From contig JAQTXN010000001.1 in the NCBI GenBank assembly GCA_028688755.1, positions 1 through 51,313 of the forward strand: DNA of 51,313 nucleotides, read 5' to 3'. Under the pieces are notes generated by a model. That model worked only from the letters and a program-made list of their open reading frames with translations. It ran no database searches and was not told the DNA's origin. Position 1 is the stretch's first letter, and each line of letters opens with the position of its first letter. Below, piece by piece: positions 36,271 through 51,313 of the stretch. The position numbers were made by a program, and so were the translations under genes. This DNA comes from Methylococcales bacterium (GTDB taxonomy: Bacteria; Pseudomonadota; Gammaproteobacteria; Methylococcales; Methylomonadaceae).

Positions 36271-38670
36271 TTAATACTCCAATTTCAACGACCCCATCAC
36301 ACTAAGAGGATTACCAGTGATGGTATTACTCGCGCCTTGCGTCGTAGCACCTGAATAGTATTCTTTGTCTAACACATTATTGAGATTCACTTGTGTAGTT
36401 AAGCGTGTTTTACCAATCGGTTTAACATAAGCTGCCATCATGTCCATTCGTACATAACCAGGCAATTCCAATGTACTCCACGATTGACCAGCTCTTGAAT
36501 CAACGACAATACCACCGATTCCAGCCTTAAATTCTGGGGTAAATTGATACGTCCCCCATAAACTTGCCTGATGCTCTGGCACATTTATAAGGCGTTTTCC
36601 TAATGCACCATTAGTATTTGCACCATTTTGAGTAACTCTTGCATCCGTATAGGCATATGTCAAAATCAAATTAAGCTCATCCGTAATACGACCTTTAATA
36701 TCCGCCTCAATCCCTTGACTTCTAGCCTCTCCTGCCGTGACTGAAAAGCCTGGGTGTTTGGAATCTGGTAGCTGTACATTCTGTTTAGTTAAATGATAGA
36801 AAGATACGGTACTTGAAAGTCTTTGATCAAAGAATTCCGTTTTAAAGCCAGCTTCGAATTGCTCACCAATTTCAGGTTTAATGGGTTGATTCCCATATAC
36901 CATTCCCGTATTAGCACTGCCAAGCGACTCGGTATAGTTGCCATATAGTGAAAGCCATGACATAGGTTGATACAGTACACCTACTCTTGGACTGAATTTC
37001 TGATTGTCACTACTTTTATAATTGGCACTCGCCACATCATAGTCGCCCTTACCAAAATCAGAACCTCTTCCAAATGTTGCCCAATCGTAGCGACCACCGC
37101 CTAAAATATGGAGTTTTTCAAATAAGGTAATATGGTCTTGGAAATATACGCCAAACCATTCTTCTTTTTCTTTTGTCGCGTAGTCATAAGGCGATGAATA
37201 AATGGCTGCTAGGTTAGCCGTGTTGTATGTCGGATTATAAATATCAACCGTGCCGCCAGTATTATTCCCACTACAACATGCAAATCTATTGTCGTCTGCT
37301 TTTCTGGTTCTACGCGAAAAATCACCACCGACTAATACTTCATGTTTTGTATTTAAAATATCAACATGACCAATCAAATCCAAATTAGTTCCATAGGTGT
37401 CGTGGTATGCCATACCAGTGATAGGAAATCTCTGTAACATGGTAGAGTCAATCATGTATTGCGGTTGAAGATCGAAATAATTTATATCCCAATCTTCGTG
37501 CATAAACCGATTTTTAACTTGCCATTTATCATTGAATTTATAAGACCAATCAAACGCCGTTAGGATGGAATTCATAACAGGTCCTTTATTCAAATCTCCG
37601 AGAAAAGTATTTAATGCCACTGGTGCAGGACGACTGCCAATAGTCGGTATCCCATTATCATTCACCCGTTTTTCATGTTTATATTCTAATTCTGCATTTG
37701 CTTCGAATCGATCGTTAGGTGTCCAACTAAGTTTAGGAGCCAAAAACACGCGCTCATCGCCAACATATTTTTTGAAAGATCCCATATCTTGATAAGACGC
37801 ATCAAGGCGATATTCTAGTGTTTTAGCCTCATCAATTGGACCAGTAGCTGCTGCGGTGGTGCGGTATTGGTCATAGTTTCCAAATTGTTGCTGCAATGAA
37901 TAATAAGGTGTATTGGAAGCTTTTTTAGTCACAACGTTGACCATGCCACCTGGTTGGATTTGACCATATAAAACCGCTGCGGGACCTTTTATAATTTCGA
38001 GTTCTTCAATATTGGACGGATCAGAATAGTTGGTGTAGCGACGAAGTCCGTTGCGATAGGTAGAAAAATTGGTACTAAAGCCGCGAATATTAAAATTTTC
38101 ATACAGATCGCCATACTCAGGATTTCGCTGTACGCCACTGACATTTTTAGTTAATGCGTCCGAGACTTCGACATCTTGCTGGTCATCCATGATGGCTTTT
38201 GATACGACTTGAATGTTGACAGGCGTTTCCATAATCGGCGTATTCGTTTTTGTGGCAGAACTGGAGTTTGTTGCACTGTAAGCGGTTGGGTCATTTTCAA
38301 TTTTTCCAACAACGGTCATTGGCTTTAACGTAATCGTATCGAGATTATCCGTTGTTGACGATTCTGATTTCGTCGCTTTAATGGCAACGGTGTTATCGCT
38401 GGTAAAATCAAAAACCAAACCACTTTGCGCGAGCATTTTTTGCAAGGCTTCCCGTTTACTCAAATGCCCTTTGATTGCTGGACTGCTCTTATTCGCAAGT
38501 GCTTCGTCGGCATAAAACGTTTGCAAACCCGTTTGTTGATTCAATTGCTCTAACGCCGACGCTAAAGGTTGTGCGGGGATGTTGAAATCAAATTTGTTGT
38601 CATCAGCAAGGGCTATCGAAATACACGCGGCAAGCGGTAGACTAGCGATAAATTTTGGAAAAGTACGCAT
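36271..38670 (-). CDS. TonB-dependent siderophore receptor with N-terminal signalling (STN) domain (FecA/FpvA-type transducer)
   Basis: Signal peptide MRTFPKFIASLPLAACISIALA and an STN domain (FNIPAQPLASALEQLNQQTGLQ). Plug motifs (ETPVNIQVV, IEELEIIKGPAAVLYG), a long beta-barrel and a terminal ...GSLKLEY. Start set at ATG 38670 after an AGGAG RBS. Confidence 0.9.
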   Translation of the reverse strand: MRTFPKFIASLPLAACISIALADDNKFDFNIPAQPLASALEQLNQQTGLQTFYADEALANKSSPAIKGHLSKREALQKMLAQSGLVFDFTSDNTVAIKATKSESSTTDNLDTITLKPMTVVGKIENDPTAYSATNSSSATKTNTPIMETPVNIQVVSKAIMDDQQDVEVSDALTKNVSGVQRNPEYGDLYENFNIRGFSTNFSTYRNGLRRYTNYSDPSNIEELEIIKGPAAVLYGQIQPGGMVNVVTKKASNTPYYSLQQQFGNYDQYRTTAAATGPIDEAKTLEYRLDASYQDMGSFKKYVGDERVFLAPKLSWTPNDRFEANAELEYKHEKRVNDNGIPTIGSRPAPVALNTFLGDLNKGPVMNSILTAFDWSYKFNDKWQVKNRFMHEDWDINYFDLQPQYMIDSTMLQRFPITGMAYHDTYGTNLDLIGHVDILNTKHEVLVGGDFSRRTRKADDNRFACCSGNNTGGTVDIYNPTYNTANLAAIYSSPYDYATKEKEEWFGVYFQDHITLFEKLHILGGGRYDWATFGRGSDFGKGDYDVASANYKSSDNQKFSPRVGVLYQPMSWLSLYGNYTESLGSANTGMVYGNQPIKPEIGEQFEAGFKTEFFDQRLSSTVSFYHLTKQNVQLPDSKHPGFSVTAGEARSQGIEADIKGRITDELNLILTYAYTDARVTQNGANTNGALGKRLINVPEHQASLWGTYQFTPEFKAGIGGIVVDSRAGQSWSTLELPGYVRMDMMAAYVKPIGKTRLTTQVNLNNVLDKEYYSGATTQGASNTITGNPLSVMGSLKLEY

Positions 38671-38765
38671 AAAAATCTCCTCTAAAGTTAAATGGTTTAA
38701 AAACACTCCATAAAACTTGAGACGAGTTTATTTAATTGCACCGCCACTTTTTAGTAAAAAGATTT

Positions 38766-39728
38766 TTATTTTCCCGAAACCAAAACTGTTCGCTCGCCCA
38801 TTTTTGTAAATTTAATCGGCAACGCGCTGGCAATCGTATTGAGCGCAAGACTTAAATTATCGGCAGGGAATGTGCCGCTGACACTGAGGTTTTGTGGCGT
38901 ATTTTCAGACAGTTGCAATTCAACATCGTGATAACGCGCTAATTGCGCTAAAACGTCACGCAACGGTTGTTTTTTGAAAATCAATTTTCCTGTTTGCCAT
39001 GCGGTAACGCTATTCACATCGGTTTTTTCCAGCGGCGCAATTTGCCCTTGCTCGTTATAACTGGTTTGCAAACCAGCAATAATGTGACGCGGCGTTGGAT
39101 TTTCAGATGTCGTAATTTGCACTTCGCCTTCTAAAACCGTGACAGCCACTTGATTGTCGTGCTGATAAACATTAAAACGGGTTCCAACATCTTCAATCAC
39201 GCCTTTTGCCGCCGCAACGGTGAAGGGTTTTTTATCATTGTGAACGACAGAAAATAACGCTTCGCCTCGAATAAAATTAACCTCTCTGCCCATAAAACCG
39301 TAATGCACGTTTAATTGCGTATCCGTATTTAAAATAATTTGCGAACCATCTGCTAATTGAACCGTTTGTCGTTCACCTTTTGCTGTTTGATAGGTTTGCG
39401 TGGTGGCGTGAAAATACAAATACGGCGAAATCCCCATCATCAAAATAACTGAAAATGCCAATGCTAAACGTGGTGAAAACAAGCGTGGTGGCGCGGGTGG
39501 GCGTTGCAAATAATGGCGCGCGGCGGTGAGTTCTTGATTGATGAGCGGTTCAACAGAATTTAAGTTCTGCCAAAAATTTTGCACGTCTTGATAAGCCTGT
39601 GCGTGCGCGGGTTTTTTAAGCAACCATCTGGAAAAATCGCGGCGTTCTTCTTCTGTACAATCGTGAGATTGTAAACGTGTGAGCCAAAAACTTGCCTGTT
39701 GATGAATAGAATTCGATTTTGTTTTCAT
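38766..39728 (-). CDS. fecR: FecR-family anti-sigma factor / transmembrane sensor
   Basis: N-terminal anti-sigma region (QASFWLTRLQS...W), a single TM and a periplasmic FecR domain (Y.T.KGERQTVQLADGSQIILNTDT...). It sits between the ECF sigma and the TBDR. Confidence 0.85.
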   Translation of the reverse strand: MKTKSNSIHQQASFWLTRLQSHDCTEEERRDFSRWLLKKPAHAQAYQDVQNFWQNLNSVEPLINQELTAARHYLQRPPAPPRLFSPRLALAFSVILMMGISPYLYFHATTQTYQTAKGERQTVQLADGSQIILNTDTQLNVHYGFMGREVNFIRGEALFSVVHNDKKPFTVAAAKGVIEDVGTRFNVYQHDNQVAVTVLEGEVQITTSENPTPRHIIAGLQTSYNEQGQIAPLEKTDVNSVTAWQTGKLIFKKQPLRDVLAQLARYHDVELQLSENTPQNLSVSGTFPADNLSLALNTIASALPIKFTKMGERTVLVSGK

Positions 39729-39786
39729 AAAGAAGTTTGAGGCGATAAAGGCAGGCTATGAAAACGATGATTATAAACGAACACGC

Positions 39787-40299
39787 TTACAAATCCTGAC
39801 CGACGCTTTTAGCAAAACAATGCGCGAGTGCTTTCGCGCAATAACGTTCAACCGTGCGTTGCGGTAAATTCAATGCTTGAGCAATTTCGCTGTGCGATTT
39901 GCCATCAAAACGATGCAATAAAAAAACATGACGATACACGTCAGGCAGTTCGTTTAAGGCTTGCAAACACTGTTTCAAAATTTGTTGACTATCCAAATGA
40001 GCGGCAATTTCAGGTTGTGGCGAATGCACATTATCAAACACAACTTCGGTGTCGGAATCAAAATGCTTTTTATGCACTTTATCGTGGCGATGATAATCAA
40101 AACCTAAATTTGCAATGATTTTATAAAGATACGCGCGGGGATTTTGAATGGTTGCAGAATCAGGATGTTGCAACAAACGTAAATAGGCTTCTTGTACTAA
40201 ATCTTCTGCGTCAATTTGACTAAAGCTGGAATTCGCAAAACTTAATAACTCTAAACGATGATGACGAAATAGCGTCTCGAAAAAACGGTGTTTGGACAT
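39787..40299 (-). CDS. fecI: ECF sigma-70 factor, FecI-like
   Basis: Region 2 (DAEDLVQEAYLRLL...YLYKIIANLGFDYHR) and region 4 (LPDVYRHVFLLHRFDGKSHSEIAQALNLPQRTVERY). ATG 40299 is preferred over the TTG at 40323. Confidence 0.85.
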   Translation of the reverse strand: MSKHRFFETLFRHHRLELLSFANSSFSQIDAEDLVQEAYLRLLQHPDSATIQNPRAYLYKIIANLGFDYHRHDKVHKKHFDSDTEVVFDNVHSPQPEIAAHLDSQQILKQCLQALNELPDVYRHVFLLHRFDGKSHSEIAQALNLPQRTVERYCAKALAHCFAKSVGQDL

Positions 40300-40475
40300 A
40301 ACGGGCAGTAAAAAATAATTCAATTACCGTTTGTTAAGGCAACAACTGAGCCGATGAAATTAAAACAACGCTAAGTCAGTAAGTTATCGATTTAGAAAAT
40401 AAGGGGTTATTTTTTAATTAGGGGATATGCCGCAGGAGTGAGCGATATGACACATACCAATGTTGAAAGAATTAT

Positions 40476-42238: not shown

Positions 42239-43789
42239 ATGAAAAATAAATTAACGATTGATAAACGATTGCGCCAGCGCGTGTTACCGCTGATGTTTTT
42301 GATAATTACCTTGCTAATGTCAATGCTCCTTTTGATGCGAATTGACGGTGTGCAAAAACACAATTTAGACGTGGCGACCGAAGGCGCACGCAACATTTTT
42401 CGGATGATTGTTTTAACACGGCAGTGGAATGCAGATCATGGTGGTGTTTATGTTTTTGTCGATGAGAAAACACCTGTTAATGAGTATCTTGACCATCCGA
42501 AAAAAGTCATTGAAACAACAGAAAAAGAAAAGCTCACGTTATTAAATCCTGCTTACATGACGCGCCAAATCGCTGAATTAGCGCAAAACGACCCCGACAT
42601 ACATTTGCGCTTGCACATTACCAGTCTTAAACCGATTCGCCCACAAAACGCCGCAGATGCGTGGGAAGTTGAAGCGTTAAAACGCTTTGAAACAGGCGAG
42701 CAAGAAATTTCGAGCGTCGAAATTGAAAATGGACAGCGTTATTTGCGTTATATGTCGCCGTTGATGGTGAAAGAAAGTTGCCTTTTGTGTCATGAAAAAC
42801 AAGGTTATAAATTAGGCGATGTACGCGGCGGCATTAGCGTTAGTTTGCAAATGGAATCGATTGATAAATCCGTTCACCATGAAATCGTTGCCAGTGCTAT
42901 TAGTTACGCTGTCTCTTATGGCTTGCTCATTATGATTACTTGGGGCTTGATTGAATTGTTAGCGCGGCGTTGGCGGGCGTTAAATGACAACATCGAAATG
43001 CTTGAAACAACGCGCAACGAATTAGTTGAAAATGAAAAAATGGCTTCTTTGGGGCGATTAGTTTCAGGTTTTGCACACGAAATTAACACGCCTGTCGGTG
43101 TGGCGGTTGGCGCAATTAGTCACGGCGATGAAACCATTGCAACCTTAAAAACCTTGCTTGCAAAAGAAGAAGTTACCGAGCAAGAACTTAATCAACAACT
43201 CGATTATTTAAGTGAAGGGCATTATTTAGCGTTAGCCAATTTGCGTCGCGCCGCCGATTTGGTGCAACGTTTTAAACGTACTTCGATAGATAGAGATTCG
43301 CAACAAAAACGCGAATATCAACCCGCCGAACTCATTCAAGATGTTTTGACCACCTTGCATAATCAGTTAAAACGAACAGAAATTAGCGTCGAGGTGACTT
43401 GCTCGGAAAAATTAAAACTTTACGGTACACCAGGTTTATTAGAACAAGTGCTGACGAATTTAATTACCAACAGCATTTCGCACGGTTTTGATAATGGCAC
43501 CCGCGCAGGTAAAATTAGCATCAATGTGTCACAATCGAGCGCAAATCGATTGATTGTCGATTACCAAGATGATGGCGTTGGTATGAATGAAGATGTGAAA
43601 CAACAAGCATTTGAACCTTTCTTTACAACCAGTCGTGATAAAGGCGGCTCAGGCTTAGGTTTATATGTAATTTACAATATCGTCACACAACAAATGGCAG
43701 GTACCATTCAAATGACTTCTGTTTCAAATGCAGGCGTTCGTTTTCACATTGAATGTCCGATTGAAGCAATTCCCTATAATACGTTATGA
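42239..43789 (+). CDS. Sensor histidine kinase with DUF3365-type heme-c (CxxCH) periplasmic sensor domain
   Basis: TM, then NPAYMTRQI...ADAWEVEALKRF...RYMSPLMVKESCLLCHEKQGYKLGDVRGGISV (DUF3365-like with CLLCH), then a second TM. H-box FAHEINTP. HATPase N and G boxes (NLITNSISHG, DDGVGM, GGSGLGL). Confidence 0.85.
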   Translation: MKNKLTIDKRLRQRVLPLMFLIITLLMSMLLLMRIDGVQKHNLDVATEGARNIFRMIVLTRQWNADHGGVYVFVDEKTPVNEYLDHPKKVIETTEKEKLTLLNPAYMTRQIAELAQNDPDIHLRLHITSLKPIRPQNAADAWEVEALKRFETGEQEISSVEIENGQRYLRYMSPLMVKESCLLCHEKQGYKLGDVRGGISVSLQMESIDKSVHHEIVASAISYAVSYGLLIMITWGLIELLARRWRALNDNIEMLETTRNELVENEKMASLGRLVSGFAHEINTPVGVAVGAISHGDETIATLKTLLAKEEVTEQELNQQLDYLSEGHYLALANLRRAADLVQRFKRTSIDRDSQQKREYQPAELIQDVLTTLHNQLKRTEISVEVTCSEKLKLYGTPGLLEQVLTNLITNSISHGFDNGTRAGKISINVSQSSANRLIVDYQDDGVGMNEDVKQQAFEPFFTTSRDKGGSGLGLYVIYNIVTQQMAGTIQMTSVSNAGVRFHIECPIEAIPYNTL

Positions 43790-45342
43790 AAATTATCCGA
43801 AATACCGAGGCACCGACAGCAAGTGCAGATGAATCCCCGTTGCAACGTGTCGAAACGCCGCGTTACCAATGGAAAGTCTTAATCGTTGATGATGAACCCG
43901 ATGTTCGAACATTGACGCGAATTAGCTTGCGTGATTTTAGTTTTGCCAATCAAACGCTTGAATTTATTGAAGCCAGTTCAGCACGCGAAGCAAAAAATTT
44001 ATTGCAACAAAATAGCGATATTGCCTTAGCGTTAATTGACGTAGTGATGGAAACCGATGATGCAGGCTTAAAACTGGTTGAATATATTCGCAATGATTTA
44101 AAAAATGCCATGATTCGCCTTGTGATTCGAACAGGGCAACCAGGTTTAGCTCCAGAGCGTTACGTTATCGACCATTACGATATTGATGATTACAAAGACA
44201 AAACCGAATTAACCGCTGCGCGACTTTATACAACCGTGCGCTCGGCGTTAAAAGCGTATCGAGATTTGCAAATTATTGATACCAATCGTCGTGGTTTAGA
44301 ACGTGTGTTGCAAGCAACGCCAGCGATTTATCAATTAGGTCATTCGCCATTATCGGATTTTTTTAACGGCATGCTCACGCAAATGATTGGGCTTTGTCGA
44401 CTTTCAACGTCTAGTCATATTGGCTCACTTGAAGGCGCGATTATGATGCTTGATGAGGATGAGCCAAAACTTCGCGCTTCCACAGCACAATTTGTAAAAA
44501 GCCAACGCTTTGAAGAAATTCATCAGCAATGTATTCATGCCATTTTACGCGACGACGACCCGATTTCTAGCCTGCGAAATAGCTCTGAGGTATTGCCGCT
44601 CATTGTTTTAAATCAACCTGTTGGCTATATCTACATTGAACCGATTGAAATTTTGAGCGATGTTGATAGAAATTTAATCCATATTTTCGCGCGGCAATGT
44701 TCACAAGCCTTAGAAAATCATGAATTGCACGGCAACATTTTGGCATCGTTTGACAGTGCCATTGAGATGCTTGCTGAAATTGCCGAATACAAAGATCAAG
44801 CAACGGGTGGTCATGTGAATCGCCTTGATTGTTATACCCATGCCATTGCAATTGAAATGGGCATAGACCAAGAAGAAGCGATTCGTTATGGAAAAGCCAG
44901 TCGTTTGCACGATGTTGGAAAAGTGGGGATTCCCGATTACATTTTGACAAAACCCAGCAAATTAACGGTTGATGAATTTGAAATTATCAAAAAACATACG
45001 ACCTTAGGCGGCAATATCCTCAGCCACGACAAAGCGTTTACCTTGGCAAAACAAATTGCGCTTGGACATCATGAGTTTTGGGATGGTAGCGGTTATCCAC
45101 TCGGCATTAAATCAAAAGATTTACCGCTTGCTGTGCGAATTGTTTCTGTTGCCGATGTGTTTGATGCGATGGTGAGCTGGAGACCTTATAAAGAACCTTG
45201 GAGCATTCAAGAAGCGCGTGATGCCATTCAAGACGGTGCAGGCACACAATTTGACCCTGACGTTGTGAATGCTTTTTTAAAATTGCTCGACAGCGGTGAA
45301 TTTGAACTTGTTATTGCCAGAGCAAACGAAGCGTTATCTTGA
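43786..45342 (+). CDS. Response regulator REC + GAF-like middle domain + HD-GYP (c-di-GMP phosphodiesterase)
   Basis: REC (VLIVDDEPD...LIDVVMETDDAG...K), a central region of about 150 aa, then HD-GYP motifs HDVGKVGIPD and HHEFWDGSGYP. Its ATG overlaps the kinase stop (ATGA). Confidence 0.9.
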   Translation: MKIIRNTEAPTASADESPLQRVETPRYQWKVLIVDDEPDVRTLTRISLRDFSFANQTLEFIEASSAREAKNLLQQNSDIALALIDVVMETDDAGLKLVEYIRNDLKNAMIRLVIRTGQPGLAPERYVIDHYDIDDYKDKTELTAARLYTTVRSALKAYRDLQIIDTNRRGLERVLQATPAIYQLGHSPLSDFFNGMLTQMIGLCRLSTSSHIGSLEGAIMMLDEDEPKLRASTAQFVKSQRFEEIHQQCIHAILRDDDPISSLRNSSEVLPLIVLNQPVGYIYIEPIEILSDVDRNLIHIFARQCSQALENHELHGNILASFDSAIEMLAEIAEYKDQATGGHVNRLDCYTHAIAIEMGIDQEEAIRYGKASRLHDVGKVGIPDYILTKPSKLTVDEFEIIKKHTTLGGNILSHDKAFTLAKQIALGHHEFWDGSGYPLGIKSKDLPLAVRIVSVADVFDAMVSWRPYKEPWSIQEARDAIQDGAGTQFDPDVVNAFLKLLDSGEFELVIARANEALS

Positions 45343-45373
45343 TTTCTAGCCAATAAAACTAACGGAAATTTTC

Positions 45374-47035
45374 ATGTCACAAAACGCTACCATTCTTTTT
45401 GAGCCTGATGCTTATTTGTTGTCCGAACCCAAATTGATGGGGCGACAAGCAGCGGGAAATAGTTTTTTACGCGCCGCTGTTGCAGGGCGAAATAATGAGC
45501 CGCTGTTTGCTTATACGCCACATCAAAAATCGGCTGAAATCTTTGCGAATTTAGTAAAACAAATTGAACCTACTGCACAAGGTCAATGGATTCCAGCGGA
45601 TCGTTTAGATTTACTTTCACAAATTGGCACGCTGTATATGCCAGGGCCTGGTTTAGATGTGGCGGCGAAATTACGTTTAAGAGCAGGGTGCAATGCTTAT
45701 TCACTTGTGGGCGTAACGCATACCACTGCTTCACACCGCGCAATGGATGCGATTACAGGTTTGCTTGCTGCGCCTGTGATGCCGTGGGATGCGTTAATTT
45801 GCACGTCAACCGCCGTGTTAGAAACGGTGAAATTATTGCTCAATGCCGAAATCGAAGCCTTGCGTTGGCGTTTTGGTTCGCAAATTCAAATTACGCTGCC
45901 GCAATTACCTGTGATTCCGTTAGGCATTCATTGTGATGACTTTGATTTTTCAGCTGAAAATAAAGCCTCTGCGCGAGCGGCGTTGAATATCGGTGAAGAC
46001 GAAATCGTTTTAGTGTTCGTTGGGCGATTATCGTTTCATGCGAAAGCGCATCCTCATGCCATGTATCTTGCCGCGCAAGAAGTAGCGAAATCGACGGGCA
46101 AAAAAATCACATTTTTGCAATGCGGTTGGTTTGGTAATGATGCTATTCAAGCCAGTTTTATTGACGGTGCCGCGCAGTTTTGCCCCGATGTTCGTGCAGT
46201 TTTTGTGGACGGACGACATCCACAATTTTCACAGCAAAGTTGGGCGAGTGCGGATATTTTCATTTCGCTTTCTGACAATGTGCAAGAAACGTTTGGCATT
46301 ACGCCAATTGAAGCGATGGCGGCGGGTTTGCCTGTAATTGTGAGCGATTGGAATGGCTACAAAGATACCGTGCGTGACGGGATTGACGGTTTTCGAATTC
46401 CAACCTTTATGCCGCCACCTAATTTAGGTGAAAACTTTGCCAAAATGCACGAAGCAGGCACGCTGAATTACGATATTTATTGCGGTTTGAGTTGTCAAAC
46501 TATTTCTGTTTCGATGGTTTCGTTGGTCGAAAAATTAAAATTGCTGGTTGAAAATGAGACCTTGCGGCAAGAAATGGGCGTGGCAGGTAAAATTCGAGCA
46601 AAATCGCACTTTGATTGGCGCGTCGTTTATCCGCAATATCAAGCTCTGTACGCGCAATTGAAAACGTTACGTTTAACGGCGTTGCAAAATACAGATTGGC
46701 AAAAACAATTACAAACTGCACCCAATGTTGCGGCAAATCGCCTTGACCCGTTTTACAGCTTTGGACATTACCCAACGACGTTAATTCAGCCGCAAACGCA
46801 AGTTGTTTTGCAAGATAGTAATGCGCTGCAAACCTATCTTTCACTTATCAAAAATCCGCTGTTTAATTACGCGGGTCAAATTTTACCGAGTGTCGCAAGC
46901 GTTGAAAAAATAGTCATGGTTTTAAAAACGCCGTTGAGTATCGCAGAACTTTCGCCGCAAAGTGGTTTGGATTTAGGTGCGAGTGTTTTAGCTGTTTCGG
47001 TTTTGGCAAAAATGGATTTGGTACGTTTAAGTTAA
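45374..47035 (+). CDS. Glycosyltransferase, GT4 (group 1) family, with a C-terminal extension of about 150 aa
   Basis: GT-B C-terminal domain with the EX7E motif: ETFGITPIEAMAAGLPVIVSDWNGYKDTVRDGIDGF. Confidence 0.8.
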   Translation: MSQNATILFEPDAYLLSEPKLMGRQAAGNSFLRAAVAGRNNEPLFAYTPHQKSAEIFANLVKQIEPTAQGQWIPADRLDLLSQIGTLYMPGPGLDVAAKLRLRAGCNAYSLVGVTHTTASHRAMDAITGLLAAPVMPWDALICTSTAVLETVKLLLNAEIEALRWRFGSQIQITLPQLPVIPLGIHCDDFDFSAENKASARAALNIGEDEIVLVFVGRLSFHAKAHPHAMYLAAQEVAKSTGKKITFLQCGWFGNDAIQASFIDGAAQFCPDVRAVFVDGRHPQFSQQSWASADIFISLSDNVQETFGITPIEAMAAGLPVIVSDWNGYKDTVRDGIDGFRIPTFMPPPNLGENFAKMHEAGTLNYDIYCGLSCQTISVSMVSLVEKLKLLVENETLRQEMGVAGKIRAKSHFDWRVVYPQYQALYAQLKTLRLTALQNTDWQKQLQTAPNVAANRLDPFYSFGHYPTTLIQPQTQVVLQDSNALQTYLSLIKNPLFNYAGQILPSVASVEKIVMVLKTPLSIAELSPQSGLDLGASVLAVSVLAKMDLVRLS

Positions 47036-47282
47036 TCAAATGACTATGTGAATTGAACGACAAAAACCGCTTTTTTGTACAAAAAGAAGGGGGGGCTATG
47101 TAAAGCAGCATTACTTGTTTTGCACTACCAAATTTTTATTTATTATCTAACCCATTGTATTGTTGGATTTTTATTTTTGATGTGCAACTTTTCTGGAATT
47201 GCAAGAAATTACAAGGTTGGCGTATTGAAGTATTTTATAATGTTTCCTTAAATTTGAATTTTTGGAAAAATTTATAACCGCA

Positions 47283-50200
47283 ATGACAACTCAAACAAAA
47301 CTCGAATTCTTATTCATTGACGCAAACGTCGCCGATAAAAAAACGTTCATCAACAGCGCGGCTTCAAATGTTAAAATCGTTGAATTAAATGATAAATCTG
47401 ACGCCTTAACGCAAATCGCCGCCGCACTCCAAGGCGTAAAAAACCTCAATGCCATTCACATCATCTCGCACGGCTCAGAAGGTGAGTTGGATTTTGCAAA
47501 CGGCACGTTAAACAGCACAAATCTTTTAACCTACCAATCACAACTCAAAAAAATCGGCACATCGCTTTCAAAAGACGGCGACATTTTGCTTTACGGTTGC
47601 GACGTGGCAAAAGGTGACGACGGCGGCGTGTTTATCAATTCTTTAGCGAAATTGACTAAAGCTGATGTTGCTGCATCGACTGATTTTACAGGTGCGGCAA
47701 GTTTAGGCGGGGATTGGGTGTTAGAAAATCAAACGGGTGACATAAATTCTGCGGTTTTAGCGTTTGAGTCTTACTCTAAAACACTGACGGCATTACCAGC
47801 AAATACATATTTCAATTCTGCAAATGGTCATTACTATCAATATGTTGCGACATCTTTAAGCTGGGCGGATGCTAAAGCAGCAGCTGCAAACAGCACCTTA
47901 AATGGATTAACAGGATATTTGGTAACAATTACTTCTCAAGATGAAAGTGATTTTCTTTTTTCAACATTCTCAAGTCGTCCAGACAGTGGCAATAGTTGGT
48001 TTGGCGCAAAATATGTTTCTGGTACTTGGAAATGGGATGCTGGTCCAGAAGCTGGACAGACTTTAAGTTACAACAGATGGCATTCTGGCGAACCTAATGG
48101 TGGAGGTAATGAATATGCCTACTTGTATAACAGAACAAGAACAGATCCCAATGACGGACTCAATGGAGATTGGTATGACGAAGGTGGACCTGCTAGCTAT
48201 ATTGTCGAATACGGTGCAGCCGCTGCGGACACAACACCACCAGTTTTCGATGTAGCTCCAGCCGCGTCAAATGTATTGACCACTACATTAGATTTATCTG
48301 CCAGCATTGATGAAGCGGGTACGATTTACTACGTCGTTGTGCCAAATAATGCGAGTGCGCCAAGCGTAGAGCAAGTTTTAGCGGGGCAAGATTCAACAGG
48401 TACAGTCGCTTTCAAATCTGGTAATTCAGCCGTCACAACAACGCCTTTTACGGGAACCTTTAATCTCACAGGTTTAACAGCAAGCACCGATTATGATGTT
48501 TATGTTGTAGCTAAAGATGCGGCTGGCACACCAAATGTGATGGTTGCAGCGACGAAAGTTGACGTAACAACAAATGCCGTACCAACCATTACTTCACTTG
48601 ACAGGTATTACAACCTTGTTGGCAACGGAAGCACATCTGGTGATTACATTGAATTACCTTCTTTTAATCCAAGCGTTTTTGGCAATGCTTTTACACTTGA
48701 AGCATGGGTTAAAGTTTCGAGTTTGGACAGTTGGGCGCGTATTTTAGATTTTGGAAGAGGTACTGGTTCAGACAACATTATATTTTCCACATCGGGTGAT
48801 GGTAACAATGGACCATTAGCTTTTAGTTCCTATAATGGTGGGAGTGGTATCAATGTACTTGCATCTAACGATGCAACTGGAAAATTACCGCTTAATACAT
48901 GGACACATGTCGCGGCAACTTACGAATACACCAGTGGAAGTACAGCAACCGTCAAGTTATATAAAGACGGTTCGCTTATTCAAACTAACACCTCTGCACA
49001 ACCCATTGCCTCGGTTACTCGTAACTTAAACTACATTGGCAAAAGTAACTGGTCACAAGATGCTTATACAAATGGAAAAATAAAAGATGCACGGGTTTGG
49101 TCTGTGGCGCGTACTGCACAGGAAATTTCAGACAATAAGACAACGCTCACAGATAGCACGGGACTTTACACCCGCTATTTATTAAATGACGGCACTGGCA
49201 CGACTGTTAAAAACTCATCACCTACAGGATCAAGTTTAGATGCAACTATTCACCCTGGTACAGGCGTGTGGGTTTCTAGCACTACTTCTAATGCAACATT
49301 GTCAGGATTAAATGGAATAGAAGAGAATACAGTTTTTCTTAACACATTTTCTATTGCAGATGACGGTACCAGTGCGACCGTTACATTGAGTTCAACAAAT
49401 GGAACATTGCATGTCTCAAACAGTGTAACAAATGGTCTCACAAGCGGAATTAGCAATAATGATACGAATTCTGTCACCGTCACAGGCACTCTCACAGCTA
49501 TCAATGCCACGATTGCTGGGAATGGCATCACATTAACCCCTGACATCACACATACCAGTAATTTCACTTCTGTTATTACAATTGGAGCTGATGATGGTGC
49601 AGGCGGCATTGCAACGAACAGCTTTAGCGTCGTTGTCGCTGCTGATAACGATGCGCCAACCGCAACTAATTTAAGTGCTGCTGAAACATTTGTTGAAGAT
49701 ACAGCGTTGAATTTAACAGACATTGTGGTCACTGATATTGATTCTGCAACTGTCACAGCCACTTTGACTTTATCAGACGTATTAGCTGGAACCATTTCAA
49801 CGGCAACATCTAACTCTGTTACGTCAACATTTACAAATGGTGTGTGGACAGCAACGGGGGCAAAGGCAGATGTGAATACATTGTTAGCTGGCGCAACATT
49901 CACACCGACAGCAAATTACAACCAGAATTTTACAATCGCCACAGCCATTACTGACGGAACGACAGGAACTAAATCGTTCTCAGGTACGCCAGTCAATGAT
50001 GCCCCAACCATTTCAAGCGTACCGAATACAGTTTTAGCTGTCACAACAGGACAATCAGCCGCTTTAGCGGATTTCACCGTTGCTGATGTTGATAGCGAGA
50101 ATTTAACGGTTACGCTGACAGCGACAAATGGCACGATTGGCAGTGTAACGGATGCTGATACAAACGTGGCAGGTATTCAAGTCACAGGTTCAGCGGCAAC

Positions 50201-51313
50201 AATCAATACAGCGTTAGCAGCGGCAACTTTTACAGCAACTAATGCAGGGGCGGCTTCAATTGGAATTTCTGTCACGGATGCTATCGAAACGGCGACTGCA
50301 ACTTATAATTTAATGGCAACGAATCCGCCAGAACCAACACCTGCACCTGCACCAACGCCTGTTCCAACTCCAACTCCTGCGCCTGTATTTGAAAAACCAG
50401 TGTCAAAAGACGTTGAATCACAAGTCCCTTCGGCAAGTGGTGTAAAAGGCGATGGAAACGGTGATGGCATTTCAGATATTGATCAAAAAAATGTGATTTC
50501 GATTCCGACGCAAAAAGATTTGCGTGAAACAGCTGATACCCCGAAAGTCTTTTTATCGATTGAATTACCGCAAGGTCAAACTTTGACAAAAGCCGAAGTG
50601 AAGCCTGTTGCAGAAATGATAAAAGAAAAACCGATTACTTTTGCAACTGAAGTTGTGAATGATAAAGGTGAAAGAGTAGTGCAAGAAGTCGCCATTACTG
50701 AAGAAACTGCGCCGTTTGGTTTGTTTGAATTTAATCTTTCGGGGGTTTCACAAACGTTTGATTCTGTAACGGGTGCAATAAAAGCTGGCACGTCAAGTGT
50801 GAAACTGTATTTGGACGACAACCAAACCGTTGAAAAATACCTTAAACAAACGGTTTCTGGAACGTGGGAACCCATTCCATTTACTTACGTTTATGATGCA
50901 AAACTCGGAAAAACCGTTGTTTCGATTTCGCTCACTGACGGTGATAAATTCGACTTAGACGGCAAAGTGGATGGTGGAATTTCAGATCCAGGTACCCCGA
51001 TTATTACGCCAAAATTAACAGCTGCGCCGATTCCTGTAGCGTTACCTGCACCGATTGAAAAAGTATTTATGGGGTATGGCAGCTCGTTTGAATTAACCTC
51101 AGGGGCGGCGCAAGTTTTTGGCTCATCGCTGCGTGAAGTGTTGACGTTAAAATCGGGAGCTAGCAACGTAGTGATTGACCAAAATGTGGAGCAAGTGAAT
51201 TTGGCGGGGAAATTTGCCGATTACTCATTTGAGCAACAAGGCAACAGCTTGAAAGGCATCAATAATTCGACAATTGTTGCAAAAGTGTTCGTGCAAGACG
51301 ATAGCAATGGCAC
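47283..51313 (+). CDS. Giant multidomain surface/adhesin-like protein, 3'-open at window end (DUF4347, C-type lectin, Ig/FN3-like, LamG, 3 cadherin-like modules, PT linker, Ca-binding-like motifs)
   Basis: I hand-translated codons starting at positions divisible by 3, from ATG 47283 to nt 51313, and met no stop (1343 codons). An in-frame TGA at 47226 bounds it upstream. It is absent from the track because no stop lies in the window. Motifs are listed in the findings. Confidence 0.85.
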   Translation, partial: MTTQTKLEFLFIDANVADKKTFINSAASNVKIVELNDKSDALTQIAAALQGVKNLNAIHIISHGSEGELDFANGTLNSTNLLTYQSQLKKIGTSLSKDGDILLYGCDVAKGDDGGVFINSLAKLTKADVAASTDFTGAASLGGDWVLENQTGDINSAVLAFESYSKTLTALPANTYFNSANGHYYQYVATSLSWADAKAAAANSTLNGLTGYLVTITSQDESDFLFSTFSSRPDSGNSWFGAKYVSGTWKWDAGPEAGQTLSYNRWHSGEPNGGGNEYAYLYNRTRTDPNDGLNGDWYDEGGPASYIVEYGAAAADTTPPVFDVAPAASNVLTTTLDLSASIDEAGTIYYVVVPNNASAPSVEQVLAGQDSTGTVAFKSGNSAVTTTPFTGTFNLTGLTASTDYDVYVVAKDAAGTPNVMVAATKVDVTTNAVPTITSLDRYYNLVGNGSTSGDYIELPSFNPSVFGNAFTLEAWVKVSSLDSWARILDFGRGTGSDNIIFSTSGDGNNGPLAFSSYNGGSGINVLASNDATGKLPLNTWTHVAATYEYTSGSTATVKLYKDGSLIQTNTSAQPIASVTRNLNYIGKSNWSQDAYTNGKIKDARVWSVARTAQEISDNKTTLTDSTGLYTRYLLNDGTGTTVKNSSPTGSSLDATIHPGTGVWVSSTTSNATLSGLNGIEENTVFLNTFSIADDGTSATVTLSSTNGTLHVSNSVTNGLTSGISNNDTNSVTVTGTLTAINATIAGNGITLTPDITHTSNFTSVITIGADDGAGGIATNSFSVVVAADNDAPTATNLSAAETFVEDTALNLTDIVVTDIDSATVTATLTLSDVLAGTISTATSNSVTSTFTNGVWTATGAKADVNTLLAGATFTPTANYNQNFTIATAITDGTTGTKSFSGTPVNDAPTISSVPNTVLAVTTGQSAALADFTVADVDSENLTVTLTATNGTIGSVTDADTNVAGIQVTGSAATINTALAAATFTATNAGAASIGISVTDAIETATATYNLMATNPPEPTPAPAPTPVPTPTPAPVFEKPVSKDVESQVPSASGVKGDGNGDGISDIDQKNVISIPTQKDLRETADTPKVFLSIELPQGQTLTKAEVKPVAEMIKEKPITFATEVVNDKGERVVQEVAITEETAPFGLFEFNLSGVSQTFDSVTGAIKAGTSSVKLYLDDNQTVEKYLKQTVSGTWEPIPFTYVYDAKLGKTVVSISLTDGDKFDLDGKVDGGISDPGTPIITPKLTAAPIPVALPAPIEKVFMGYGSSFELTSGAAQVFGSSLREVLTLKSGASNVVIDQNVEQVNLAGKFADYSFEQQGNSLKGINNSTIVAKVFVQDDSNG
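47805..48215 (+). other. C-type lectin-like domain inside the giant ORF
   Basis: YYQYVATSLSWADAKAAAA...GYLVTITSQDESDFL...WFGA...WKWDAG...YNRWHSGEPNGGGNEYAYL...GDWYDEG...YIVEYG. The EPN triplet is at 48090-48098 and WYD (the WND position) at 48171-48179. The domain contains no cysteines. Confidence 0.75.
48590..49200 (+). other. LamG / concanavalin-A-like lectin domain inside the giant ORF
   Basis: GDYIELPSFNPSVFGNAFTLEAWVKVSSLDSWARILDFG...NTWTHVAATYEY...VKLYKDGSLI...NYIGKSNW...GKIKDARVWSVARTAQEI is a typical Laminin_G_3 pattern. Confidence 0.75.
49299..50321 (+). repeat. Three tandem, diverged cadherin-like/Ig-like protein modules of about 109-116 aa
   Basis: Module boundaries are marked by DNDAPT (49644-49661), VNDAPT (49992-50009) and a degenerate TNPPEPT (50319-50339). 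Internal blocks recur: (I/V)(A/T)D(D/I/V)D(G/S)...TVTL(S/T)..NGT and the ...ATFT(P/A)T motif. Confidence 0.6.
50325..50384 (+). repeat. Pro/Thr/Ala-rich low-complexity linker (PPEPTPAPAPTPVPTPTPAP)
   Basis: Direct translation of 50325-50384. It separates the cadherin-like modules from the C-terminal DGNGDGISD / DLDGKVDGGISDPG region. Confidence 0.8.

What the first reader, a model, noticed from the sequence alone, without database searches (positions are those of the whole stretch)
47283..51313. Giant lectin-rich surface protein gene that the ORF track does not show (ORF runs off the window)
From ATG 47283 I translated 1343 codons to the last base of the window without meeting a stop. The track lists nothing on + here because there is no stop; it shows only five antisense ORFs (49250-51166). 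The domain order is as follows.
- A DUF4347-like N-terminus (LEFLFIDANV...AIHIISHGSEGELDF...ILLYGCDVAKG...ASTDFTGAASLGGDWVLE).
- A cysteine-free C-type lectin with an EPN motif.
- An Ig/FN3-like module (TTPPVFDV...STDYDVYVVAKDAAG).
- A LamG domain.
- Three cadherin-like modules and a PT linker.
- A region with DGNGDGISD and DLDGKVDGGISDPG motifs.
There is one Cys in 1343 residues and no obvious Sec signal peptide. Both fit a non-classically secreted extracellular giant protein. The combination of two different lectin folds behind a DUF4347 head is, as far as I know, functionally uncharacterised. The protein is incomplete, so its true size and any C-terminal secretion or anchor signal are unknown.
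Basis: partly seen in the sequence, partly recalled or inferred. Interest (0 to 1): 0.8.

Follow-up and report, generated by a model that had tools for sequence, protein, structure and literature searches.

The report
Lectin-bearing exoprotein with caspase-like head
The open frame is a real gene for a large (about 1,500 residue), signal-peptide-less, lectin-carrying bacterial surface or secreted protein cut off by the contig end; it belongs to a widespread but uncharacterised class whose N-terminal "DUF4347" head appears to be a caspase-fold cysteine protease domain.

Summary
Window 47283-51313 (+) is open for 1343 codons, and substitutions against three relatives concentrate at third codon positions. 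The antisense ORFs are therefore shadows. The window is a whole contig, and it breaks inside a tandemly duplicated C-terminal module.

Three complete relatives all stop 175-180 residues later. The protein is therefore about 1,500-1,520 aa: large, not giant.

- DUF4347 (4e-52).
- A Cys-free C-type lectin with EPN, but WND is WYD.
- An FN3-like module.
- Laminin_G_3 (1e-29).
- Three cadherin-like modules.
- A Pro/Thr linker.

New here:
- The "DGNGDG" region is a choice-of-anchor U domain.
- The tail is a roughly 106-aa module absent from Pfam and NCBIfam. It has 809 representative clusters and a weakly RTX/beta-roll-like predicted fold.
- The DUF4347 head models (pLDDT 96) as a caspase-type fold. 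His63 and Cys106 align with the putative dyad of P. aeruginosa Tce1.
- Cys106 is the protein's only cysteine. The median cysteine count in 109 homologues is one.

Best reading: a probably type-I-secreted, glycan-binding exoprotein with a probable clan-CD protease head. This is a new variant of a known kind, of moderate interest.

The parts
47283..51313 (+). 5'-truncated-at-3'-end gene (1343 codons plus 2 bases). It encodes a modular exoprotein and runs off the contig end. The expected full length is about 1,500-1,520 aa.
   Evidence: No stop in the frame. Third-position substitution bias against L001, L083 and L082. Complete relatives end 175-180 aa later.
47036..47282 (+). Upstream intergenic region. 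It holds one sigma-70-like site (47119-47146) and an in-frame TAA at 47238.
   Evidence: The promoter match is no better than chance (2 found against 1.4 expected).
47310..47768 (+). DUF4347 head (aa 10-162). Predicted caspase-type alpha/beta fold, a putative clan-CD-like cysteine protease domain.
   Evidence: Pfam PF14252, E 4.1e-52. AF2 model pLDDT 95.8. Foldseek top hit is 9qpe_G (Tce1, a DUF4347 protein), E 8.7e-6, followed by caspase-3/-6/-7/-8 and legumain.
47466..47474 (+). Ser62-His63-Gly64, the putative catalytic His just after strand beta-3.
   Evidence: His is present in 91/92 unique homologue domains and invariant in A1. It aligns with Tce1 'THG', which is His186 of the dyad proposed in PMC13323088.
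47592..47600 (+). Tyr104-Gly105-Cys106, the putative nucleophile just after strand beta-4. This is the only Cys in the 1343 residues.
   Evidence: Cys is present in 91/92 unique homologue domains. The median Cys count is 1 in 109 homologues of median length 1,847 aa. It aligns with Tce1 'LYGCD'.
47808..48221 (+). Cysteine-free C-type lectin-like domain (aa 176-313). EPN is at aa 270-272. WND is replaced by WYD at aa 297-299.
   Evidence: Lectin_C 25.9 bits as a separate segment. Codakine 2vuv 3e-7 and DC-SIGNR 1e-5. Alignment with bacterial homologues that keep WND.
48225..48572 (+). FN3/Ig-like beta-sandwich module (aa 315-430).
   Evidence: fn3 E 0.0035. The module is shared at 40-69% identity with many proteins, often in tandem arrays.
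48636..49130 (+). Laminin_G_3 / concanavalin-A-like lectin domain (aa 452-616).
   Evidence: Pfam PF13385, E 1.4e-29. PDB 4dqa 2.4e-5.
49296..50312 (+). Three beta-sandwich 'cadherin-like' modules (aa about 672-1010). Modules 1/2 and 2/3 are separated by (D/V)NDAPT boundary motifs at aa 788-793 and 904-909.
   Evidence: Faint Cadherin_5 hit. 34% identity to the P0013 region that Pfam annotates as Cadherin and Cadherin_5. 69% identity to P0003 residues 677-945.
50322..50387 (+). Pro/Thr-rich linker (aa 1014-1035).
   Evidence: Sequence.
50445..51011 (+). Choice-of-anchor U domain (aa about 1055-1243; HMM match 1142-1240). It is bracketed by the Asp/Gly-rich motifs GDGNGDGISD and DLDGKVDGGISDPG.
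   Evidence: NCBIfam NF041766, E 3.8e-10, 40.5 bits against a cut-off of 32. The same domain occurs in relatives P0002, P0003, P0006 and L001.
51060..51311 (+). First copy (aa 1260-1343, about 85 of 106 positions) of a tandem terminal module with no Pfam or NCBIfam model. The contig ends inside it.
   Evidence: Alignments A2 and A3. 809 representative clusters at E<=1e-3. Relatives carry two copies followed by a short tail. Model pLDDT 90.4, with weak RTX-like fold matches.

Best explanation
The gene encodes a modular exoprotein of about 1,500 aa that is acidic, almost cysteine-free and lacks a signal peptide. It comes from a Gram-negative bacterium, probably a Methylococcales-type gammaproteobacterium.

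Secretion (inferred). The most likely route is C-terminus first through a type I secretion system encoded elsewhere in the genome. The C-terminal cassette would fold outside the cell, probably with Ca2+. It consists of a Pro/Thr linker, a choice-of-anchor U domain and two RTX-like beta modules. It would either carry the secretion signal or hold the protein at the cell surface.

Binding (domains shown, activity inferred). The middle of the protein presents a C-type lectin-like domain and a LamG/ConA-like domain on FN3-like and cadherin-like spacers. It should therefore bind glycans on other cells, on exopolymer or on particles.

The head (fold and conservation shown, activity inferred). The N-terminal DUF4347 head is a caspase-type (clan-CD-like) domain with an intact His63-Cys106 dyad. 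It most likely acts as a cysteine protease. It could cut a target reached through the lectins, or cut the protein itself (maturation or release). Its strict N-terminal position in every homologue suggests its role is tied to being the last part exported.

Shown: reading frame, domain identities, fold predictions, dyad conservation, family distribution and the assembly break. Inferred: secretion route, Ca2+ dependence, sugar binding and proteolytic activity.
For: Reading frame and selection.

No signal peptide: the DUF4347 domain starts at residue 8-10.

Composition: pI 4.3 and one Cys, a composition I know as typical of T1SS substrates.

Link to RTX proteins:
- Close paralogues or orthologues with a 65-72% identical head (P0003, P0006, P0009/10/12) end in RTX nonapeptide repeats and a serralysin-like C-terminus.
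- 18 of 109 homologues have two or more GGxGxD motifs in the last 500 residues.

The tail module:
- It co-occurs with serralysin M10 plus RTX (P0134) and with RTX plus Calx-beta proteins (P0232, P0257).
- Its model (pLDDT 90.4) has as best PDB matches the beta-roll domains of T1SS lipases PML and LipA, an Aeromonas RTX-like domain and CyaA RTX blocks.
- Each module carries one G-x-x-G-x-(D/E)-x-hydrophobic turn.

The head:
- Model pLDDT 95.8.
- Foldseek top hit is the DUF4347 protein Tce1 (9qpe_G). Nearly all further hits among the 50 listed are caspases or legumain, at probability 0.95 or higher.
- His lies after beta-3 and Cys after beta-4, as in clan CD.
- H63, D100, Y104 and C106 are invariant in A1.
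- The median Cys count is 1 in 109 homologues.
- PMC13323088 proposes the same dyad for Tce1 and Tce2 and shows that Tce2 C115S loses toxicity in yeast.

Lectins.

Length estimate. In addition, fragment P0122 starts with the same 19 residues that end the window ORF.
Against: - No T1SS genes (ABC transporter, membrane fusion protein, TolC-like) lie in the 51-kb window or beside five relatives.
- The window protein has no canonical GGxGxD nonapeptide. No Pfam or NCBIfam RTX or T1SS-target model matches the window protein or the complete tails of its relatives P0002 and L001.
- The fold match of the tail to RTX domains is weak (TM 0.24-0.34 with large rmsd).
- The same module also occurs at residue 3 of other proteins and in small lipoproteins. 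It is therefore a domain rather than simply a secretion signal.
- TM-scores of the head to caspases are modest (0.3-0.43; 0.57 to Tce1).
- No DUF4347 protein has had protease activity shown biochemically. Tce1 itself showed no phenotype.
- The lectin's WND motif is WYD.
Confidence: 0.6

Rival explanations
1. Lectin-targeted toxin or effector. The protein is released rather than surface-held. The lectin domains dock it to glycans of a prey or grazer cell, and the DUF4347 protease is the toxic payload. This would be analogous to the T6SS effectors Tce1 and Tce2, or to the processing domains of MARTX toxins and large clostridial toxins.
For: The only studied DUF4347 proteins are T6SS effectors, and one of them (Tce2) is toxic to yeast through its Cys. 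The head has the caspase-type fold with an intact dyad. Lectin domains lie directly behind the head.
Against: There is no translocation or pore-forming region. The body consists of adhesin-type spacers (FN3-like, cadherin-like) and a choice-of-anchor domain, which I know to occur in surface-anchored proteins. Homologues are mostly very long repeat proteins of adhesin type. No immunity-like gene is adjacent.
Confidence: 0.15
2. Non-catalytic head. DUF4347 is a fast-folding alpha/beta plug that stalls the last step of type I export and so tethers the adhesin in the outer-membrane channel. It would be functionally equivalent to the LapA-type retention module. The conserved His and Cys would serve structure or metal binding, not catalysis.
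For: DUF4347 lies near the N-terminus in all 109 homologues in the set: the first copy starts within about the first 180 residues, and in 36 it starts within the first 30. It is an alpha/beta domain with no Ca2+-type motifs. The RTX-adhesin paradigm needs an N-terminal domain that folds without Ca2+ (bioRxiv 10.1101/2025.09.30.679566).
Against: One Cys is retained almost universally in proteins that otherwise exclude Cys. With the His it sits exactly at clan-CD catalytic positions, which is hard to explain by structure alone. The ligand-binding domains lie next to the head. In LapA-type adhesins they lie at the far, distal end.
Confidence: 0.15
3. Structural sheath, S-layer or matrix protein. 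The terminal modules mediate self-assembly or binding to LPS or exopolysaccharide. The lectins cross-link the organism's own polysaccharide, and the protein has no enzymatic role.
For: The terminal module sits at the extreme N- or C-terminus of hundreds of otherwise unrelated proteins and in small lipoproteins, as an attachment domain would. A GT4 glycosyltransferase gene lies directly upstream.
Against: There is no evidence on abundance or self-assembly. The body differs between proteins that share the same tail, which suits interchangeable cargo better than a lattice protein.
Confidence: 0.08
4. Non-functional remnant or assembly artefact, that is, a chimeric contig end or a pseudogene.
For: The contig ends inside a repeat, where misassembly is common.
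Against: The frame is uninterrupted for 1343 codons, and substitutions are biased to the third position. Every domain is intact. Relatives are collinear up to the last codon.
Confidence: 0.02

Closest known systems
DUF4347 domain-containing large repetitive exoproteins (Pfam PF14252), annotated in Dickeya, Pectobacterium, Plesiomonas, Halopseudomonas, Arcobacter, cyanobacteria and Methylococcales
   Same: N-terminal DUF4347 head with the SHG...YGC motifs. No signal peptide. About one Cys per protein. A long body of Ig-like, cadherin-like or lectin modules. Many end in RTX repeats.
   Different: This protein starts directly with the domain and lacks the LE(P/Q)RILFD leader seen in 43 of 109 homologues. 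It combines a C-type lectin and a LamG domain. It ends in the unnamed tandem module instead of canonical RTX repeats. No member of this class has been studied experimentally, as far as the searchable literature shows.
P. aeruginosa T6SS effectors Tce1 (PA0256, PDB 9qpe) and Tce2 (PA2372)
   Same: Same Pfam family and fold. The His and Cys align. The authors propose a TcdB/MARTX-type cysteine protease dyad.
   Different: Tce1 and Tce2 are small (190-310 aa) cargo proteins loaded into the Hcp3 lumen. The window protein is about 1,500 aa, carries the domain at its extreme N-terminus and cannot be an Hcp cargo.
RTX (LapA/MpIBP/FrhA-type) adhesins secreted by T1SS
   Same: Large, acidic, Cys-poor and without a signal peptide. 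Beta-sandwich spacers plus sugar-binding domains. A C-terminal beta-rich region resembling RTX domains.
   Different: No retention module, no long tandem array of identical extenders and no canonical nonapeptide repeats. The ligand-binding domains lie near the N-terminus instead of near the C-terminus.
Cysteine protease domains of MARTX toxins and large clostridial toxins (peptidase family C80, clan CD), caspases and legumain
   Same: Caspase-type fold order with His after beta-3 and Cys after beta-4. Foldseek probability is 0.95 or higher.
   Different: The domain is shorter (about 150 aa). No InsP6-binding flap is evident. It is N-terminal rather than internal. There is no sequence-level match to these families.
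Animal C-type lectins of the EPN (mannose/GlcNAc) type, such as codakine and DC-SIGNR
   Same: Sequence match covering the EPN motif and the following GNE acidic residue.
   Different: No disulfides. WND is WYD, and there is an extra 12-residue loop.

Membership tests
DUF4347 (Pfam PF14252) | Score above the Pfam gathering threshold | tested here: met
   176.7 bits against a cut-off of 24.6, residues 10-162.
DUF4347 (Pfam PF14252) | Conserved SHG and YGC motifs (the putative dyad) | tested here: met
   S62-H63-G64 and Y104-G105-C106. His is in 91/92 and Cys in 91/92 unique homologue domains.
Clan CD cysteine peptidases (caspase, legumain, C80 CPD) | Caspase-type alpha/beta fold with His after strand 3 and Cys after strand 4 | tested here: met
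   The AF2 model (pLDDT 95.8) has the order beta3(55-61)-H63 ... beta4(95-104)-C106. Foldseek hits to caspase-3/-6/-7/-8 and legumain have probability 0.95-1.0 but TM only 0.3-0.43.
Clan CD cysteine peptidases (caspase, legumain, C80 CPD) | Demonstrated peptidase or autoprocessing activity | not testable with these tools
   The only indirect evidence is for the relative Tce2, where C115S abolishes yeast toxicity (PMC13323088).
Clan CD cysteine peptidases (caspase, legumain, C80 CPD) | InsP6-binding beta-flap and basic pocket (specific to C80) | not tested
The domain is about 60 residues shorter than C80 CPDs.
C-type lectin domain (Pfam PF00059) | Score above the gathering threshold | tested here: inconclusive
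   21.5 bits on the whole protein (below 22.6). 25.9 bits when residues 165-320 are scanned alone. PDB codakine 3e-7.
C-type lectin domain (Pfam PF00059) | EPN and WND Ca2+/sugar-site motifs | tested here: inconclusive
   EPN is present at 270-272. WND is WYD at 297-299, whereas bacterial homologues keep WND.
C-type lectin domain (Pfam PF00059) | Conserved disulfide bridges | tested here: not met
   There is no Cys in the domain. The same holds for all aligned bacterial homologues.
Laminin_G_3 / ConA-like lectin (Pfam PF13385) | Score above the gathering threshold | tested here: met
   103.6 bits against 27.6, residues 452-616.
Choice-of-anchor U (NCBIfam NF041766) | Score above the NCBIfam cut-off | tested here: met
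   40.5 bits against 32, residues 1142-1240.
RTX adhesins (LapA type) | N-terminal retention module | tested here: not met
   NCBIfam and Pfam scans at E<=1 give no retention-module or BapA-prefix match. The N-terminus is DUF4347. The definition is from bioRxiv 10.1101/2025.09.30.679566.
RTX adhesins (LapA type) | Tandem array of Ig-like extender domains | tested here: inconclusive
   One FN3-like and three divergent cadherin-like modules are present. There is no long array of near-identical repeats.
RTX adhesins (LapA type) | C-terminal beta-roll with nonapeptide repeats and a T1SS signal | tested here: inconclusive
   The window protein has no GGxGxD motif or HemolysinCabind hit, and the complete tail of relative P0002 has no Pfam hit either. 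The tail model's best PDB matches are RTX beta-roll domains at weak TM. The true C-terminus lies outside the window.
RTX adhesins (LapA type) | Adjacent T1SS genes (ABC, MFP, OMP; LapD/LapG) | tested here: not met
   None in the window or in loci L001, L081, L082, L088 and L089. The window covers only the upstream side.

The most novel reading that the evidence does not exclude
The DUF4347 head is a self-releasing plug for type-I-secreted surface proteins. As a caspase-fold domain it would fold in the cell before export finishes and jam the outer-membrane channel, tethering the protein. On a cue it would then cut its own chain and shed the lectin-bearing body. One cis-acting domain would thus combine the roles that the LapA retention module and the LapG protease play separately.

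A related possibility is that the unnamed 106-aa terminal module (809 clusters) is a new, portable Ca2+-folding domain for secretion or surface attachment of T1SS substrates.
Probability: 0.12. Interest if true: 0.8.

Novelty: new variant of a known kind. Interest (0 to 1): 0.45.

Why it matters
Large type-I-secreted adhesins control how Gram-negative bacteria attach, form biofilms and aggregate. The only well-understood way they are held and released is the LapA retention module with the LapG/LapD system.

DUF4347-headed proteins are a second, very common class. In the 120 best hits listed here, 109 carry the domain, from many phyla. No member of this class has been characterised.

The head is predicted to have a caspase fold, and its single, almost invariant Cys sits in otherwise Cys-free proteins. 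This gives a concrete, testable hypothesis for the whole class: mutate H63 or C106 and look for processing or release.

The terminal module found here is also missing from Pfam and NCBIfam, although it has hundreds of clusters. It systematically breaks short-read assemblies, so proteins carrying it are under-annotated.

For this particular gene the practical message is modest. It is an ordinary member of that class with a new mix of lectin domains, and only about 0.5 kb of it is missing.

Tried and rejected
1. Extending the contig. The window is the whole contig. The genome-contig scan did not return the source genome beyond the relative L001. The metagenome scan gave the relatives L083-L087 but no identical continuation. 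P0122 starts with the same 19 residues that end the window ORF, but its contig is not on record. The true 3' end was therefore inferred, not read.

2. Looking for secretion genes beside relatives. Loci L001, L081, L082, L088 and L089 hold no T1SS genes.

3. Linking the family to the experimentally T1SS-secreted Pectobacterium adhesin MRP (ECA3266). The literature confirms that MRP is a T1SS substrate. I could not show that the Pectobacterium DUF4347 hits are MRP. Locus L090 has HlyD-like and M50 peptidase genes upstream, and its contig ends in the gene. This link was dropped.

4. Word-indexed searches with the tail found only 1 and then 8 short fragments. The exhaustive HMMER search was needed to see the family.

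5. Pfam on isolated segments at E<=10 found nothing for the choice-of-anchor region or the tail.

6. A profile search of PDB sequences with the DUF4347 alignment gave only Tce1 at a marginal E-value, plus spurious de novo TIM barrels. The fold comparison was the informative step.

7. A T6SS Hcp-cargo role like that of Tce1 was rejected because of the protein's size.

8. Sec-dependent routes (T2SS, T5SS, T9SS, sortase) were rejected because there is no room for a signal peptide.

9. The promoter and terminator scan of the upstream gap was uninformative.

Full report
**1. The observation**

Translating window 47283-51313 on the + strand gives 1343 codons and no stop. Reading directly, an in-frame TAA lies at 47238. 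The only alternative start between it and the ATG at 47283 is a TTG at 47262.

The Pfam DUF4347 match begins at residue 10, and the first modelled strand is residues 8-12. ATG 47283 is therefore the credible start, and there is no room for a signal peptide.

The database record of this protein sits on a contig of exactly 51,313 nt. The window is a whole contig, and the gene is cut by the contig end.

I aligned codons 1026-1343 with three relatives. Nucleotide differences at codon positions 1/2/3 are 47/28/120, 68/47/154 and 82/58/159. The + frame is under purifying selection, and the five antisense ORFs are shadows.

The protein has one Cys (C106) and a pI of 4.3.

**2. Domain content**

- DUF4347, residues 10-162, E 4e-52.
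- Laminin_G_3, residues 452-616, E 1e-29.
- Lectin_C. It scores just under the Pfam cut-off on the whole protein (21.5 against 22.6 bits). It passes when the segment is scanned alone (25.9 bits). It matches the EPN-type lectins codakine (3e-7) and DC-SIGNR.
- The FN3-like module, residues 315-430. It is weak against Pfam, but it is a mobile module shared at 40-69% identity with dozens of proteins.
- The three 'cadherin-like' modules, about residues 672-1010. They give only a faint direct hit. They align with the part of P0013 that Pfam calls Cadherin and Cadherin_5.
- The PT linker, residues 1014-1035.

An alignment with bacterial homologues shows that they keep EPN...E...WND and lack cysteines. 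The window copy has WYD and a 12-residue insert. Canonical sugar binding is therefore plausible but not assured.

**3. Size and the missing end**

Four other proteins share the same C-terminal cassette but have different bodies:
- L001, from a Methylococcales MAG, 80% identical over residues 1033-1343.
- P0002, 1269 aa and complete, with a 65% identical head and the same tail.
- L083 plus L084, two contigs of one JGI sample that overlap in protein sequence.
- The fragment P0122.

The cassette is a Pro/Thr linker, the choice-of-anchor U domain, two copies of a roughly 106-residue module and a short tail. In all three complete cases the stop comes 175-180 residues after the point where the window ends.

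P0122 begins with INNSTIVAKVFVQDDSNGT. These are the same 19 residues that end the window ORF. It may be the missing piece, although I could not retrieve its contig.

The expected full length is therefore about 1,500-1,520 aa: large, not giant.

The window, L083 and the fragments P0121-P0123 all break in or next to the duplicated module. This is the usual short-read failure at repeats, as the literature notes for large repetitive adhesins.

**4. The head**

An alignment of 45 diverse DUF4347 domains has H63, D100, Y104, C106, S132 and L147 invariant, and S62, G64 and G105 nearly so.

The AlphaFold2 model is confident (pLDDT 95.8, pTM 0.91). Its order is b1-a1-b2-a2-b3-[His63]-hairpin-a3-b4-[Cys106]-a4-b5.

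Foldseek against the PDB gave these results:
- First, 9qpe_G, the DUF4347 protein Tce1 of P. aeruginosa (E 8.7e-6, TM 0.57).
- Then, among the 50 matches listed, almost only caspase-3/-6/-7/-8 and legumain, at probability 0.95-1.0 and TM 0.3-0.43.

A profile alignment puts window 'HIISHG' on Tce1 'LIATHG' and 'LLYGCD' on 'ALYGCD'.

The 2026 paper on Tce1 and Tce2 (PMC13323088) makes three relevant points:
- It proposes exactly these residues as a TcdB/MARTX-like catalytic dyad.
- It shows that Tce2 C115S loses toxicity in yeast.
- It does not demonstrate proteolysis, and Tce1 had no phenotype.

Across 109 homologues of median length 1,847 aa, the median number of cysteines is one. The family excludes Cys everywhere except this position, which argues strongly for a chemical role.

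DUF4347 lies near the N-terminus in every homologue. In 43 of 109 it is preceded by a short LE(P/Q)RILFD leader, which the window protein lacks.

**5. The tail**

The roughly 106-residue module has no Pfam or NCBIfam match. Word-indexed searches found only a handful of short fragments. An exhaustive HMMER search of 1.84 billion representatives found 809 clusters at E<=1e-3 and 496 at E<=1e-10.

Among the 150 best hits the module occurs in three settings:
- As a tandem pair at the extreme C-terminus.
- Starting at residue 3 of the protein.
- Singly, in small lipoproteins.

Its partners include a serralysin-type M10 protease with RTX repeats, and RTX plus Calx-beta proteins.

A model of the P0002 tandem pair is all-beta and confident (pLDDT 90.4). 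Its best PDB matches are the beta-roll domains of the T1SS lipases PML and LipA (E 2e-4 to 1e-3), an Aeromonas RTX-like domain and the CyaA RTX blocks. TM-scores are low, at 0.24-0.34.

Each module contains one G-x-x-G-x-(D/E)-x-hydrophobic turn reminiscent of the RTX nonapeptide.

I read the module as a divergent, self-contained relative of RTX beta-roll units. This is a moderate-confidence inference.

**6. Context**

The window is ordinary Gram-negative chromosome at 39-47% GC. It carries lpxB, hisS, miaB-like, sbcB-like and glutamate synthase genes, and a FecI/FecR/TonB-receptor set.

Directly upstream on the same strand lie four genes:
- A RecD-like helicase.
- A Tll0287-type histidine kinase.
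- A response regulator with an HD-GYP-type domain (Pfam HD_5).
- A GT4 glycosyltransferase.

No T1SS genes are in the window or beside five relatives. Relatives point to Methylococcales.

**7. Mechanism**

The most likely picture (confidence about 0.6) has three parts:
- Export without a signal peptide, C-terminus first, through a T1SS encoded elsewhere.
- Extracellular folding of the tail cassette, which carries the secretion determinant, a surface-attachment function, or both.
- Display of two lectin-type domains on beta-sandwich spacers, with an N-terminal caspase-fold domain that is probably a cysteine protease.

Whether that protease acts on external targets or on the protein itself is open, as is the possibility that it serves mainly as an export-stalling plug. 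The rivals are listed with their tests.

**8. Comparison and novelty**

The protein is a clear member of the DUF4347-headed exoprotein class. It works like, but fails the definition of, a LapA-type RTX adhesin:
- It has no retention module.
- It has no long extender array.
- It has no canonical nonapeptides.

Both pairings recur in other bacteria: DUF4347 with a C-type lectin (Halopseudomonas and others), and DUF4347 with LamG and cadherin-like modules (P0013). The architecture is a new shuffle.

Three things are worth noting beyond the single gene:
- The caspase-fold reading of the head for a whole class of adhesin-like proteins.
- The single conserved Cys.
- The unnamed terminal module.

I rate it a new variant of a known kind, with interest 0.45.

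Noticed in passing
window 51060-51311; L083 end and L084 start; P0121-P0123: The contig ends inside a tandemly duplicated module of about 106 aa. Independent assemblies of relatives break at the same place. Most database entries of this tail found by the word-indexed searches are fragments of 70-200 aa.
   Followed up: yes
L086 271-1890; L087 417-2057; P0125, P0126, P0128: The same terminal module also starts at residue 3 of unrelated proteins of about 540 aa that lack a signal peptide. It also forms the body of small (about 190 aa) lipoproteins with a lipobox (LLSAC). No Pfam or NCBIfam model covers it, although there are 809 representative clusters.
   Followed up: partly
window 42239-47035 (+): Directly upstream and co-directional lie three genes: a histidine kinase with a Tll0287-like sensor, a response regulator with DUF3369 and an HD-GYP-type (HD_5) domain, and a 553-aa GT4 glycosyltransferase. 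In other bacteria, cyclic-di-GMP enzymes next to a surface adhesin gene regulate retention. I did not check whether this neighbourhood is conserved.
   Followed up: no
homologues P0005, P0008, P0013 and 40 others (first 150 aa): 43 of 109 DUF4347 proteins carry a conserved N-terminal LE(P/Q)RILFD(G/S)A peptide about 50-100 residues ahead of the domain. The window protein and its closest relatives lack it. It could be a processing or recognition site for the head.
   Followed up: partly
P0007 (Bicosoecida sp., eukaryote) and P0048: The FN3-like module of residues 315-430 recurs in long tandem arrays in a stramenopile protein and in a protein with TSP1 and REJ domains, at 30-44% identity. This suggests a widely exchanged extracellular module.
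   Followed up: no
L001 about 2225-2300; L084/L085 about 470-560: The sequence just downstream of the stop codon is conserved between relatives; read through in frame it translates as '..KTALLCKTK(G/R)RFFCA..'. It looks like a shared terminator hairpin after the tail cassette.
   Followed up: no
window 36271-40323 (-) and 34982-36196 (-): An ECF sigma factor, a FecR-like anti-sigma factor, a TonB-dependent receptor with an STN domain and a PepSY-TM protein form a typical iron or siderophore surface-signalling cluster on the opposite strand.
   Followed up: no
window 631-6087 (+): An 1818-aa glutamate-synthase large-subunit-like protein (GATase_2, Glu_syn_central, Glu_synthase, GXGXG). By my own knowledge of GltB sizes it looks longer than typical GltB proteins. 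It is followed by a 570-aa flavodoxin/FAD/NAD reductase (sulfite-reductase-alpha-like) rather than a classic GltD.
   Followed up: no
L090 4308-8538: In Pectobacterium parmentieri, the genes upstream of a DUF4347 giant protein encode HlyD-like adaptor proteins and one protein that fuses an M50 peptidase with a HlyD-like domain. This may be an unusual export or processing system for this class.
   Followed up: no
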